From an uncultured Gemmatimonadaceae bacterium (GTDB taxonomy: Bacteria > Gemmatimonadota > Gemmatimonadetes > Longimicrobiales > Gaopeijiaceae): a DNA stretch of 26,791 nucleotides. Under the pieces are notes generated by a model that worked only from the letters and a program-made list of their open reading frames with translations, was not told the DNA's origin and did not search any database. The DNA lies in contig CAZMPV010000001.1 of the NCBI GenBank assembly GCA_964567985.1, forward strand, positions 1 to 26,791, read 5' to 3'. The stretch's first letter is position 1, and each line of letters begins with the position of its first letter. Positions 2,440 through 5,400 of this stretch are shown piece after piece. Both the position numbers and the translations under genes were made by a program.

Positions 2440-5400
2440 CTACCCGGGCCGCTGGACTTCCAGGAAGACGACCTCGTCCACCGTGTTGTCGTCCGGCAGC
2501 GTCAGCAGGTCCTGCTCATCCGAAGACAGCTGCACGACCTCGCTGCTCGGAGCATCCACCAGGAGCCCCCGGCCCTGGAGCTCCTGGACGATGGACTGGA
2601 GCCGGGCCCTGGCCGGCCGGTTGTCCGGCGTCTCCGGGACCGCCAGCTCCACCCGGTCGTAGCGCATGTTCAGCCCGGCCAGCAGGTCCACCTGCGCGTC
2701 GGTCAGGGGCTCCTCCAGCGTCCCGTCGACCTCGAAGTCCACCACGAGGCTCCCGTCCCGAAGCAGGATTTCGCGCCCACCGTCGACGGCCTCGTAGGCG
2801 ACGATACGAGCGGTACGCTCCCTGCCGGCCACGACCATGGTGATCGCGTCGGCGGGCATGCCCACGTCCTCGGGAACGTCCAAGACGCGAATCATGGCGT
2901 CGGAGATTCCATCCAGGCCCTGGATCAGAGCCTCCGCCTGGGCCTCCCGGGGCTCGGTCTCGTCCGGGGCCGCGAAGACCAACGCCCCCCCCGCCGTCAT
3001 GCCGGGAAAGGCAGAGTCCCATCCGGCGTCGATCGCCGCCATTCCCGCCGAGTCGGGCGTCGTCCCGCCCACGGGGAAGTCCACCCGCCCCAGGATCGTG
3101 CCGACCTCGGCGAGGAACTCCTCGGTGATGGCATCGCCGATGTCGTCGCGGCTGAAGGAGATGCCCTCCTCGCCCTCCACGCCCACCACCAGGTGAGTCG
3201 TCGTGGCCGGCTCTTCCTCCGGCTCCTCCGGAGGTTCCCCGGCGCCGGTGGCCACCACCACCACCCCGTCCGCCCCCGTGACATCGAGCCCCGGCGGAAG
3301 GGCCGGGAGCCGGACCGAGGTGGCGTCGGCGTGGAGTGGCGTGGCCTGGCCCAGCGTCGCCTCCAGACGGTCCAGCCGGCCTTCGGCCAGGACCGGGCCG
3401 TCCTCCGCGGCCTCTCCGCGGCTGGCGATGGCCCCCAGCACGATCGAGCCGCCGGGCCCGGCCTCCCGCCACGCGTCCAGGACCGAGGCCGCCGGCGTGG
3501 TGAGGGAGACACCGTCGCCGGAGAAGGTGACGGGGCCGACCTCCACGGGTCCGAACTCCGTGAGCGCACCGGGATCGTCGGAGCGCAGGGCCTCCAGGAG
3601 CCCCTCGACGTCCGACTCCGACGAGCCGAGTCGCGCGCGCTCCTCCTCGATCGCCTGCATCAGCTCCTCGACATCCTGGATGGTGAGGGGCTCGGCGCCC
3701 CGGGCGACTCGCACCTGGTTCACGATGGCGAGCGCCCCGTTGAGGTCCCCGACGCGAACGAGCTCCTCGGCCTCGTCCAGCATGGCGGACACCTCGTCCT
3801 CGCCTCCGTCGTCACCGGCGAGTCCCACGTGGTACACGCGGTAGCGTCGGTCCCGGGTCGGCGCGGGCCGCGTGGGCCGGGGGGCGCACTCCTTCACGCG
3901 CCGGCGGTGGAAGAGGACCCACTCCCGGGTGGCGTGGACGGGGGGCCCTTCCTCGGGCCGCTCCCGCTGGAAGAGCTCGGCCTCGGCGCGGGGCTGGAAT
4001 GCGGGATCGTCCAGCCCTCGTCCGATCAGCTCCAGGGCCGCGACCGCTCGCTGGTGGGCCGGGTGGTCATTCTCCAGCACCCGGTCGTCGCGCTCGGCCG
4101 TGGCCGTGGCGGGCTCGAAGACCCGCTCATCGGTGGTCGCGTCCTCCGGGGCCAGCAATACTTCGAGCTCGGTTCCGGGCTCGCCGTCCACGACGTCCAG
4201 CACGATCTCGGCCGTCTGCAACCCCACGTGGGAAACGACGACCCGCTGGTCCGTACCGAGGACGTCCCGGAGCACGAAGCCGCCGTCGGCGTCGGTGAGC
4301 GCCCCCCGTTCCGTGCCCTCGATCACGACCTGCACGCCGGCCAACGGGTTCCCGTCCTCCAGCGTCCGGACCACGCCCCGGATGACGCCCTCGGACGCCG
4401 GTCCCACCTCTTCGATCCGGGATTCGTCCTCGATCGTCTCGACGCTCCGGATCCGCAGCACGCCGTCCACGTGATCCTCCTTCCGCACGCCGGTGACCGT
4501 GACGGCGGTGCCGCTCTCGTGGCTCAGCCGGAGCACGAGGCTCGTGGGACCGTCCATCGGCCCCCGGAGCCGGAACTCGGCCGACAAAGCGATGCTGGTG
4601 CTTTCCACCGGCAGGGGATCTCCGTCCAGCGTGGGCTTGAGGAGGAGGACGACCCGTCGGAAGCGACCCTCCACGGTTCGCTCGCCGCTTCCGTCGTCAC
4701 CGGCCACGCTGCCGACCTGAAGCGTTCCCTCGGCCTCCACCTCCACCGTTCCGGCCTGGCCCTCGGCCGCCGCCCCCAGGGCGGCCTTCAGGGTACAGGG
4801 GAGGGGATCCCCCGCTTCCAGGGCGAAGGGATCGGCGTCGTAGCGAAGCGTGGCCCACGCTCCGGCCTCCAGCTCCTCCAGCGTCCGATCCACCGTCCGG
4901 ATGTCGGCCTCCACGGCCAGGTTTATCCGGTCATGCCGGACATCCGCGCCGCCGACCGTGCCCGCTCCACTGCCATCCTCCGCCTCCTCGCCATCCCTCT
5001 CCTCCTCGAAGACGTCGCCCAGGGCCTCGCCCAGCAGCCGGGCGAGGGCGGGAGGCAGGGCGCTCGGCGAGCCAGCCCAGCGCAGGATCCCGCCCTCGCC
5101 GTCCCGGTCCAGGGCCCGGGCCACCCCCCGGACCGTAGCGGAGGGGAGCTCGACGACGCCGCCGGTCGAGTGGTGCGTCGGCGACGAAAACTCCGCATTC
5201 CGGACCTCGGTCACGTCGCCGTAGGCGTTCGCCGGGGGCGTGACCTCCAAGGTCACGTCATAGAGCCCCGTGGCGCCCGCGCCGGGCCGCACCGTGCCGT
5301 CGGGCACCAGGACGTCCACCTCGGGCATGCTCACCGGATCGGCCAGCCCCTCCAGGAGCGAGATCCGCTCCATGTGCTGGACCTCCTCCAGCGCGTGGGC

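What the first reader, a model, noticed from the sequence alone, without database searches (positions are those of the whole stretch)
4147..4389. SusC-type CarboxypepD_reg domain inserted in the same eCIS protein
Seen in sequence: aa ~802-880 read GVIRGVVRTLEDGNPLAGVQVVIEGTERGALTDADGGFVLRDVLGTDQRVVVSHVGLQTAEIVL. Established: this is the pattern of the carboxypeptidase-regulatory-like beta-sandwich at the N-terminus of SusC-type TonB-dependent receptors (I.G.V.D...G.PL.G..V.V.GT..G..TD.DG.F.L......L..S..G). Inference: together with the SusD-like segment ~360 nt away, the protein carries pieces resembling both partners of a SusC/SusD pair. That points to domain recruitment from nutrient-uptake loci into an injection-system fibre. 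The domain is promiscuous, so on its own it is weaker evidence than the SusD-like piece.
Basis: partly seen in the sequence, partly recalled or inferred. Interest (0 to 1): 0.68.

Follow-up and report, generated by a model that had tools for sequence, protein, structure and literature searches.

The report
Ig-like insert in eCIS fibre protein
A large fibre-like protein of a phage-tail-like injection machine in a probable Gemmatimonadota genome carries a real 86-residue carboxypeptidase-regulatory-type beta-sandwich, inserted at a site where close relatives hold other modules or none; such domains are already catalogued in these fibres, and nothing ties this one specifically to SusC nutrient transporters.

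Summary
The quoted peptide lies on the minus strand in a 1450-aa ORF (window 2440-6792). Residues 804-889 (window 4126-4383) match Pfam CarbopepD_reg_2 (E 5e-13) and CarboxypepD_reg (E 1e-11), and fold as a transthyretin-like beta-sandwich.

The host protein is the last structural gene of an eCIS locus. It has an N-terminus like a Cis13 or phage receptor-binding-protein shoulder, and it belongs to a large family found in many phyla. The family has a conserved scaffold and hypervariable insertion sites.

The domain is a clean insertion. Only 4 of 128 metagenomic family members have it, and none of 80 species-representative loci has it at that site. Sister proteins differ in having it. One copy (P0019) belongs to a different lineage of the domain.

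The "SusC-type" reading is only partly supported:
- The best solved-structure sequence hits are RagA/SusC N-terminal extensions.
- The two Pfam models score almost equally.
- No TonB box or plug follows the domain.
- Identity to the host's own SusC copies is at most 39%, and the trees are unresolved.

CarboxypepD_reg modules are already listed in a 2026 catalogue of eCIS fibres. The most likely role is an exposed, exchangeable Ig-like adhesion or spacer module. This is a new member of a known kind, of modest interest. The scan had not seen it on other DNA.

The parts
2440..6792 (-). 1450-aa eCIS fibre-like protein (P0002) with a Cis13-like N-terminus, the last structural gene of the locus
   Evidence: ORF and translation. 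910 homologues with conserved blocks at aa 25-500, 900-1000 and 1075-1190. Same position in syntenic eCIS loci.
4126..4383 (-). CarboxypepD_reg / transthyretin-like beta-sandwich insert, aa 804-889 (the finding)
   Evidence: Pfam PF13715 E 5e-13 and PF13620 E 1e-11. Six-frame hit at these coordinates. Fold match to 5aq0 and 9hfj and to ESM Atlas TonB-receptor N-terminal domains at rmsd 1.8-2.5 A.
4384..4476 (-). Acidic linker of low model confidence, aa 773-803, tethering the insert on its N-terminal side
   Evidence: pLDDT below 50 for model residues 96-110, which are aa 785-799. The alignment shows this stretch is variable or absent in homologues.
4477..5271 (-). Closed beta-barrel domain, aa 508-772, part of the variable middle region
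   Evidence: VIA-align Z 10-12.6 to 10-stranded and nitrobindin/Rv2717c-type barrels over model range 508-772.
5893..6738 (-). N-terminal shoulder-like domain, aa 19-300, putative baseplate anchor
   Evidence: NCBIfam CIS13_fam on aa 32-98, E 5e-9. VIA-align Z 7.4 to the lactococcal phage 1358 receptor-binding protein (4l92) and Z 7.3 to the HFTV1 tail fibre (9h5b).
3793..4110 (-). Conserved scaffold block 2, aa 895-1000, with the near-invariant WVLFHRRR motif, directly after the insert
   Evidence: Covered by more than 100 of 119 homologues. Invariant columns listed. Alignment.
3631..3786 (-). Second insertion, aa 1003-1054: SusD-like helical hairpin, shared only with P0004 at this site
   Evidence: Site 2 has a median of 3 aa in the family and 62-64 aa in P0002 and P0004. 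PF07980 E 0.018 when scanned alone, below cut-off. Custom SusD-segment HMM E 2.5e-6.
6795..8252 (-). Upstream 485-aa paralogue sharing the Cis13-like N-terminus
   Evidence: NCBIfam CIS13_fam on aa 25-100, E 4.8e-9. A gene of 480-556 aa stands immediately upstream of the fibre gene in L021, L103 and L104.
103..2328 (-). Downstream eCIS_core (DUF4157) putative effector
   Evidence: Pfam PF13699 E 4e-23.
13287..26110 (-). eCIS core: sheath, tube, CIS_tube, GPD spike, gp25, Baseplate_J, Tail_P2_I
   Evidence: Pfam hits.

Best explanation
The 86-residue segment is a carboxypeptidase-regulatory-like (transthyretin-type) beta-sandwich. It is spliced as a self-contained module into a hypervariable loop of the large fibre-like protein of an extracellular contractile injection system.

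The protein has several parts:
- A shoulder-like N-terminus, which probably docks it on the baseplate (inferred).
- A beta-barrel (aa 508-772).
- A conserved helical and alpha/beta scaffold.
- At least two insertion hot spots in that scaffold.

The beta-sandwich hangs on an acidic flexible linker at hot spot 1. It most likely serves as an exposed Ig-like adhesion or spacer module that helps set which surface the particle binds (inferred). Related fibres carry DUF11, CARDB and other Ig-like modules, in positions not mapped here.

The module was drawn from the very large pool of such domains in envelope proteins, of which SusC N-termini are only one part. It is gained, lost or exchanged by recombination between close relatives.

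Shown: the domain's identity and fold, its status as an insertion, its rarity and patchy distribution, the mosaicism, and the eCIS context. Inferred: surface exposure, a binding role, and the docking role of the N-terminus.
For: - Domain identity and fold.
- Clean insertion at one site: site 1 has a median of 46 aa, against 127-141 aa in P0002, P0004, P0005 and P0019. P0007 lacks roughly 80 aa there.
- Rarity: 4 of 128 family members have the domain, and none of 80 species-representative loci has it at site 1.
- Patchy distribution on the scaffold tree: at least 3 changes are forced by well-supported branches. P0005 and P0006 are sisters, as are P0019 and P0031, and each pair differs in having the domain.
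- Mosaicism: P0019 and P0031 are about 90% identical after WVLFHRRR but about 35% identical upstream.
- P0019's copy falls in a different well-supported domain group, so there were at least 2 origins.
- Divergence: the P0002 and P0004 copies are 40% identical, against 62% over the scaffold.
- Flexible tether: pLDDT is below 50 at aa 785-799.
- Fibre identity: CIS13_fam N-terminus, similarity to phage receptor-binding-protein shoulders and a tail fibre, and the eCIS locus with synteny.
- Other members carry DUF11, CARDB and other Ig-like modules.
- Published catalogue: eCIS fibres combine conserved N-terminal anchors with swapped Ig-like modules, including carboxypeptidase-regulatory domains (PMC12923769).
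Against: - No binding partner or ligand is known for any CarboxypepD_reg domain in a fibre, and the SusC NTE itself has no known function.
- The monomer model gives only pLDDT 60-72 for the insert, and I could not inspect coordinates. Exposure is therefore inferred from the linker and the variability, not seen.
- The trimeric state and the position on the particle are untested.
- The family has not been tied to the published eBAP classes by a direct test.
- The AU tests do not exclude a SusC-NTE origin.
Confidence: 0.68

Rival explanations
1. Specific recruitment from nutrient-uptake loci. The beta-sandwich was copied from the N-terminal extension of a SusC-type TonB-dependent transporter of the host lineage, and the nearby helical piece from a SusD. 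The fibre would then carry fragments of both SusCD partners.
For: - The best solved-structure sequence hits are RagA (6sli, E 0.008) and SusC-type NTEs, and TIGR04056 gives E 2e-8.
- PF13715 scores slightly above PF13620 for P0002.
- The nearest single domains include PF13715-rich envelope proteins that carry Plug, TonB_C or type IX secretion sorting domains.
- The host has at least 3 SusC/SusD pairs.
- Trees constrained to join P0002 (with or without P0004) to the host SusC NTEs are not rejected, and scored higher than the quick free tree (AU p 0.61 and 0.76).
- SusD_RagB fragments are significant in P0019 (E 1.8e-9) and P0031 (E 2.3e-7). They are weak but repeat at the same profile positions in P0002, P0004 and P0075.
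- Both module types are confined to one 11-member clade of the family.
Against: - Full-length identity is 34-39% to the host's own TonB-receptor N-termini and at most about 38% to 120 SusC NTEs whose named members are Gemmatimonadota. That is no better than to P0004's copy or to generic multi-repeat proteins.
- The PF13715 margin is 5 bits, against 12-19 bits for real SusC NTEs, and three of the four fibre copies favour PF13620.
- No TonB box or plug was co-transferred.
- The careful tree leaves P0002 and P0004 in a polytomy, outside the well-supported group of three host SusC-type NTEs (C233, C468, C27).
- GC3 of the insert equals that of the gene, so there is no sign of recent transfer.
- The NTE precedes the TonB box (periplasmic side) while SusD is the outer lid, so the two do not interact in SusCD.
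- CarboxypepD_reg modules occur in many other eCIS fibres where no SusD was listed.
Confidence: 0.17
2. Structural or assembly role only. The beta-sandwich would stabilise the fibre trimer or contact the neighbouring 485-aa paralogue or the baseplate, without contacting the target.
For: - Ig-like sandwiches often act as spacers.
- The SusC NTE has been proposed to matter for transporter biogenesis or cellular function rather than for substrate binding.
- The domain sits mid-protein (aa 804 of 1450), not at the distal end.
Against: - A module needed for assembly should be conserved. It is absent from about 97% of the family, including the sister protein P0006, within otherwise syntenic loci.
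- Other inserts occupy the same site in P0075 and P0031.
- It diverges faster than the scaffold.
Confidence: 0.13
3. Chance resemblance, or an artefact of a spurious high-GC ORF.
For: The window has 73% GC, and long ORFs occur on both strands.
Against: - Two Pfam models score above their curated cut-offs.
- The fold match has target TM 0.83-0.85.
- Homologous proteins carry the same domain at the same site in syntenic loci.
Confidence: 0.01

Closest known systems
eCIS tail-fibre proteins with conserved N-terminal anchors (eBAP3-5) and swapped Ig-like binding modules (Nachmias et al. 2026, PMC12923769)
   Same: - An eCIS locus with a shoulder-like N-terminus resembling phage receptor-binding proteins.
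- A conserved anchor followed by highly variable modules.
- The paper names carboxypeptidase-regulatory domains among the Ig-like modules of eBAP4 fibres, and both Pfam models appear in the fibre domain table of its supplement.
- Domain swapping and frequent acquisition are described there, and are seen here.
   Different: - I could not assign this family to a particular eBAP class. There is no DUF6519 hit and no sequence match to solved tCIS chains.
- Here the module is inserted into a loop of a long conserved scaffold (WVLFHRRR family), rather than strung on a flexible C-terminal chain.
- SusD-like pieces were not found in the held part of that paper's supplement.
Cis13 of the Anabaena thylakoid-anchored CIS (All3316; PMC8894136)
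   Same: The N-terminal roughly 70 residues match NCBIfam CIS13_fam. Cis13 is a fibre-like trimer whose N-terminal domains bind the baseplate.
   Different: The match is 36 bits against a family cut-off of 370, so this is not an equivalog. Cis13 is short, with a C-terminal transmembrane helix that anchors the machine. P0002 is 1450 aa with globular modules, and no transmembrane helix was predicted or looked for here.
N-terminal extension (NTE) of SusC/RagA TonB-dependent transporters (Pfam PF13715; NMR structure 6YTC, crystal structure 9hfj)
   Same: - Same Pfam clan and the same 7-stranded Ig-like fold.
- Best solved-structure sequence hit and fold match with target TM 0.77.
- As reported for the NTE, the best structural match is the 5aq0 transthyretin-like domain.
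   Different: - Internal position (aa 804), not N-terminal.
- No signal peptide context, TonB box, plug or barrel.
- At most 39% identity to the host's copies.
- The NTE lies on the periplasmic side of the transporter, whereas a fibre module would face the target.
[quoted passage not shown]
   Same: Best fold match, target TM 0.83-0.85 at rmsd about 2 A.
   Different: Only 22% identity. It is a eukaryotic enzyme appendage, with no functional link.

Membership tests
CarboxypepD_reg clan domain (Pfam PF13715 / PF13620) | Profile score above the curated gathering cut-off | tested here: met
   PF13715 49.3 bits (cut-off 32.2) and PF13620 45.1 bits (cut-off 32.3) in the whole protein. Scanned alone, 56.2 and 51.0 bits.
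CarboxypepD_reg clan domain (Pfam PF13715 / PF13620) | Seven-stranded transthyretin-like beta-sandwich fold | tested here: met
   The AlphaFold2 model segment 111-200 matches 5aq0 (target TM 0.83-0.85) and 9hfj (target TM 0.77). It matches Atlas models at rmsd 1.8-2.5 A over 80-84 residues. The local pLDDT is only 60-72.
SusC/RagA N-terminal extension (NTE) | Lies at the N-terminus of the mature protein | tested here: not met
   The domain starts at residue 804 of 1450.
SusC/RagA N-terminal extension (NTE) | Followed by a TonB box, then a plug and a TonB-dependent barrel | tested here: not met
   No PF07715 or PF00593 hit. TIGR04056 matches only model positions 4-80. The host SusC NTEs are followed by LDE[LI]VVTG, which the fibre copies lack.
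SusC/RagA N-terminal extension (NTE) | PF13715 clearly preferred over the generic PF13620 | tested here: inconclusive
   P0002 has a margin of +5 bits. The host SusC NTEs have +12 to +19 bits. P0004, P0005 and P0019 have -4 to -8 bits.
SusC/RagA N-terminal extension (NTE) | Phylogenetic nesting among SusC NTEs | tested here: inconclusive
   The careful tree gives a polytomy. AU tests reject neither a clade with the host SusC NTEs (p 0.61-0.76) nor a single clade of the four fibre copies (p 0.33). Only 85 columns were available.
eCIS tail-fibre / Cis13-like protein | Encoded in an eCIS locus downstream of the baseplate genes | tested here: met
   Sheath, tube, spike, gp25, Baseplate_J, Tail_P2_I and an eCIS_core effector lie on the same strand. 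The gene order from Tail_P2_I to the fibre gene is the same in L021, L022 and L104, and L103 shows the fibre gene followed by eCIS_core genes.
eCIS tail-fibre / Cis13-like protein | N-terminal baseplate-anchor domain | tested here: inconclusive
   CIS13_fam E 5e-9, but 36 bits against a cut-off of 370, covering aa 32-98 only. Shoulder-like fold similarity at Z 6.9-7.4 to a phage receptor-binding protein and a tail fibre. Foldseek found nothing significant.
eCIS tail-fibre / Cis13-like protein | Conserved anchor combined with variable binding modules across homologues | tested here: met
   The N-terminal 500 aa are about 50% identical across the family. The middle and C-terminal regions vary and carry DUF11, CARDB, CarboxypepD_reg or SusD-like modules.
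eCIS tail-fibre / Cis13-like protein | Trimeric fibre attached to the baseplate periphery | not testable with these tools
   Only monomer predictions were available.

The most novel reading that the evidence does not exclude
The fibre combines an NTE-like beta-sandwich with a SusD-like helical piece because it targets bacteria of the Bacteroidota/Gemmatimonadota group through their own SusCD/TonB uptake machinery. The borrowed fragments would act as mimics that dock on the outer-membrane transporter complexes of competitors. That would make this an eCIS with a bacterial, nutrient-transporter receptor.
Probability: 0.04. Interest if true: 0.8.

Novelty: new member of a known kind. Interest (0 to 1): 0.3.

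Why it matters
Fibre modules are thought to set which cells an eCIS particle attacks, and the targets of most environmental eCIS are unknown. This case adds a documented example of cassette-like gain, loss and exchange of an Ig-like module at a defined hot spot. The scaffold family that carries it is widespread and has no matching solved structure. The case also shows that a best hit to SusC does not by itself mean recruitment from a nutrient-uptake locus. The more unusual lead is the SusD-like fragment that recurs in the same clade, which is the subject of a separate finding.

Tried and rejected
- Plus-strand translation of the given coordinates gives no such peptide. The feature is on the minus strand.
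- An exhaustive search of 1.84 billion representatives with the domain alone was ranked by summed score. Proteins with 5-18 tandem copies fill the top 150, so it did not identify a nearest single-domain relative. It only showed that nothing above 46% identity exists in that list.
- A second word-index search restricted to aa 790-1000 filled its candidate cap with unrelated proteins. It did not even recover P0004, so it gave no information.
- The quick maximum-likelihood domain tree put P0002 and P0004 with 12 generic copies. The AU runs then found constrained trees with higher likelihood, so I discarded that placement and relied on the careful tree, which is a polytomy.
- A profile search of PDB sequences with the N-terminal alignment found nothing meaningful. 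Foldseek on the N-terminal model found nothing below E 0.009.
- Compositional evidence for recent transfer was checked and rejected: GC3 is 0.92 in the insert and 0.90 in the whole gene.
- rpoB for taxonomy is only a fragment at a contig end. Lineage was inferred instead from named SusC homologues and the best fibre homologue.
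Full report
**Observation.** The coordinates are right but the strand is minus. The plus-strand translation of 4147-4389 is unrelated. The quoted peptide begins at residue 802 of a 1450-aa ORF at window 2440-6792, minus strand (P0002).

Pfam reports CarbopepD_reg_2 (PF13715) at aa 804-889, with E 5.1e-13 and 49.3 bits against a cut-off of 32.2. It also reports CarboxypepD_reg (PF13620) at aa 804-877, with E 1.3e-11. 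These residues correspond to window 4126-4383. A six-frame search of the whole genome returns the same interval.

NCBIfam adds a partial match to the first 80 positions of the SusC/RagA model TIGR04056 (E 1.9e-8). Among solved structures, the best sequence hits are RagA (6sli, E 0.008) and two SusC-type N-terminal domains.

An AlphaFold2 model of aa 690-1450 (71-sequence alignment, mean pLDDT 81.8) has significant PDB fold matches only over this segment.

**What the protein is.** All genes of the window lie on the minus strand and form an eCIS locus: sheath, gp19-type tube, CIS_tube, GPD spike, gp25, Baseplate_J and Tail_P2_I (with an NHL repeat). After four further genes come a 485-aa protein, the 1450-aa protein and an eCIS_core (DUF4157) effector candidate.

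Both the 485-aa and the 1450-aa proteins start with a stretch that matches NCBIfam CIS13_fam (E about 5e-9, far below the equivalog cut-off). Cis13 of the Anabaena system is a fibre-like trimer whose N-terminal domains bind the baseplate (PMC8894136).

A model of aa 1-799 (pLDDT 71) has no significant Foldseek hit. An all-against-PDB structural alignment gives two results:
- Residues 19-300 resemble the shoulder part of the lactococcal phage 1358 receptor-binding protein (Z 7.4) and the tail fibre of Haloferax virus HFTV1 (Z 7.3).
- Residues 508-772 form a closed beta-barrel (Z 10-12.6).

This fits the "shoulders-like" N-terminal anchors that Nachmias et al. 2026 describe for eCIS fibres (PMC12923769). 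I could not assign the protein to one of their classes.

**The family and the insertion.** The word-index search returned 910 homologues, typically 1000-1500 aa. Mapping them on P0002 shows conserved blocks at aa 25-500, 900-1000 and 1075-1190. The second block holds a nearly invariant WVLFHRRR motif. The variable regions are aa 500-900, aa 1000-1075 and the C-terminus.

In a 120-sequence alignment, the stretch between query positions 770 and 897 has a median of 46 residues. It has 127-141 residues in P0002, P0004, P0005 and P0019. The local alignment shows the beta-sandwich as a clean block in these four at one site. P0075 and P0031 carry a helical insert there, and most others carry nothing.

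An HMM built from the host genome's own copies finds the domain in only those four of 128 family members. I also scanned one genome per species, which returned 80 family loci from Gemmatimonadota, Acidobacteriota, Myxococcota, Gamma- and Betaproteobacteria, Verrucomicrobiota, Actinomycetota, Chloroflexota and others. None carries the domain at this site. P0004, P0005 and P0019 all sit in eCIS loci, and the flanking gene order matches wherever the contigs cover it.

**Evolutionary dynamics.** I built a tree from scaffold columns only. The four carriers fall in one 11-member clade (SH-aLRT 97), but at least three changes of state are needed. P0005 is sister to P0006, which lacks the domain (support 100). 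P0019 is sister to P0031, which has a different insert (support 100).

P0019 and P0031 are about 90% identical from WVLFHRRR onward but only about 35% identical upstream. The whole middle region has therefore been exchanged.

The P0002 and P0004 copies are 40% identical, against 62% over the scaffold. In a careful domain tree they are sisters (support 89/93). P0019's copy lies in a different well-supported group, so the family acquired such domains at least twice. GC3 of the insert (0.92) equals that of the gene (0.90), so nothing points to a recent transfer.

**Is it SusC-type?** The host genome is a 3.2-Mb metagenome-assembled genome, 79% complete. It has 30 PF13715 matches. It has two full-length SusC/RagA-family receptors that score above the TIGR04056 cut-off, plus several partial ones at contig ends. 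Three SusD_RagB matches lie on the same contigs as SusC matches. Most of the closest named homologues of its SusC are from Gemmatimonadota. The best named fibre homologue is from a Gemmatimonadales genome. The raw material was therefore at hand.

Even so, the fibre copy shows no special affinity to SusC:
- It is 34-39% identical to the host's TonB-receptor N-termini.
- It is 40% identical to P0004's copy.
- It is 37-46% identical to repeats in unrelated multi-copy proteins.
- Against 120 SusC NTEs whose named members are mostly Gemmatimonadota, it reaches at most 38% over the full length, or 52 bits.

Scanned as isolated domains, the host SusC NTEs prefer PF13715 over PF13620 by 12-19 bits. 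P0002 prefers it by 5 bits. P0004, P0005 and P0019 prefer PF13620.

The host NTEs are followed by a TonB box (LDE[LI]VVTG) and a plug. The fibre copies are not.

AU tests reject neither a clade of P0002 with the host SusC NTEs (p 0.61-0.76) nor a single clade of the four fibre copies (p 0.33). With 85 columns the origin cannot be resolved.

Some of the nearest single domains lie in PF13715-rich envelope proteins: BlaR1-like M56 proteins with TonB_C, plug-bearing receptors, and type IX secretion cargo. A loose statement is therefore defensible: the module comes from the pool of envelope-protein domains common in this group of phyla. "From SusC" is not.

**Function.** In SusC the NTE precedes the TonB box, and its function is unknown (PMC7782687). 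Because TonB reaches the transporter from the periplasm (established topology), the NTE lies on the periplasmic side. SusD is the lid that closes over the ligand cavity from outside. The two pieces are therefore not interacting partners, and the idea of a transplanted SusC/SusD pair has no mechanistic basis.

The features seen here fit the published picture of eCIS fibres instead:
- a flexible acidic tether, with pLDDT below 50 at aa 785-799;
- a hypervariable site;
- presence or absence differing between sisters;
- faster divergence than the scaffold;
- other Ig-like modules in relatives.

In that picture, conserved anchors carry swapped Ig, lectin and PKD modules that are presumed to bind targets. 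The paper names carboxypeptidase-regulatory domains among them. Its supplementary domain table holds 31 CarbopepD_reg_2 and 36 CarboxypepD_reg rows.

I therefore read the insert as an exposed, exchangeable adhesion or spacer module (confidence about 0.68). The binding role is inferred, not shown.

**The SusD-like piece.** This belongs to another finding of the scan, but it bears on the interpretation. At a second hot spot (median 3 residues), only P0002 and P0004 carry a 62-64-residue helical insert.

Scanned alone, it gives PF07980 E 0.018 in P0002 and E 0.0047 in P0004, both below the cut-off. Both hits fall at the same profile positions (169-219) as the significant SusD_RagB matches at the C-termini of P0019 (E 1.8e-9) and P0031 (E 2.3e-7).

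A small HMM from the host's SusD segments plus those two C-termini retrieves P0002 (E 2.5e-6), P0004, and P0075 with P0280. It retrieves nothing else among 209 family sequences. All carriers lie in the same 11-member clade. This recurrence is real. It is the most unusual aspect of the locus, and "SusD" does not occur in the held part of the catalogue's supplement.

**Verdict.** The specific SusC origin and the "pair" logic are not supported. The domain type is already known in eCIS fibres, so this is a new member of a known kind, with interest 0.3.

Noticed in passing
window 3631-3786 (-); also P0019 aa 1333-1421, P0031 aa 1284-1345, P0075 aa 707-745: A SusD_RagB-like helical segment (Pfam profile positions about 163-254) recurs at three different positions in one clade of the fibre family. 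It is significant in P0019 and P0031 (E 1.8e-9 and 2.3e-7). It is weak but consistent in P0002, P0004 and P0075. 'SusD' does not occur in the held supplement of the 2026 eCIS fibre catalogue.
   Followed up: partly
window 2440-4110 (-), aa 895-1450: The conserved scaffold after the insert has the WVLFHRRR motif, an invariant Cys and repeated alpha/beta units modelled at pLDDT above 90. It has no significant PDB fold match by Foldseek. The family occurs in at least eight phyla.
   Followed up: partly
window 4477-5271 (-), aa 508-772: The variable middle region folds as a closed beta-barrel, similar to 10-stranded, nitrobindin and Rv2717c-type barrels (VIA-align Z 10-12.6). This is an unusual element for a fibre.
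   Followed up: no
window 9427-11682 (-): The ORF in the position of the eCIS AAA+ ATPase shows only a winged-helix Pfam hit and overlaps the next ORF. The syntenic genes in L021 and L104 are 660-675 aa with a clear PF00004 AAA hit.
   Followed up: no
L103 (P0019) compared with P0031: Two fibre genes are about 90% identical downstream of WVLFHRRR but about 35% identical upstream. This marks a sharp recombination breakpoint that exchanges the whole middle region.
   Followed up: partly
G000 contigs C17 (11722-15968), C27 (8679-13026), C370: The high-GC host genome carries SusC/RagA receptors and SusD_RagB matches on the same contigs. Most of the closest named SusC homologues are from Gemmatimonadota, so SusCD-type uptake is present outside Bacteroidota here.
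   Followed up: partly
window 13287-15539 (-): The Tail_P2_I baseplate protein carries an N-terminal NHL repeat or beta-propeller-like region, which is also seen faintly in the L021 orthologue.
   Followed up: no
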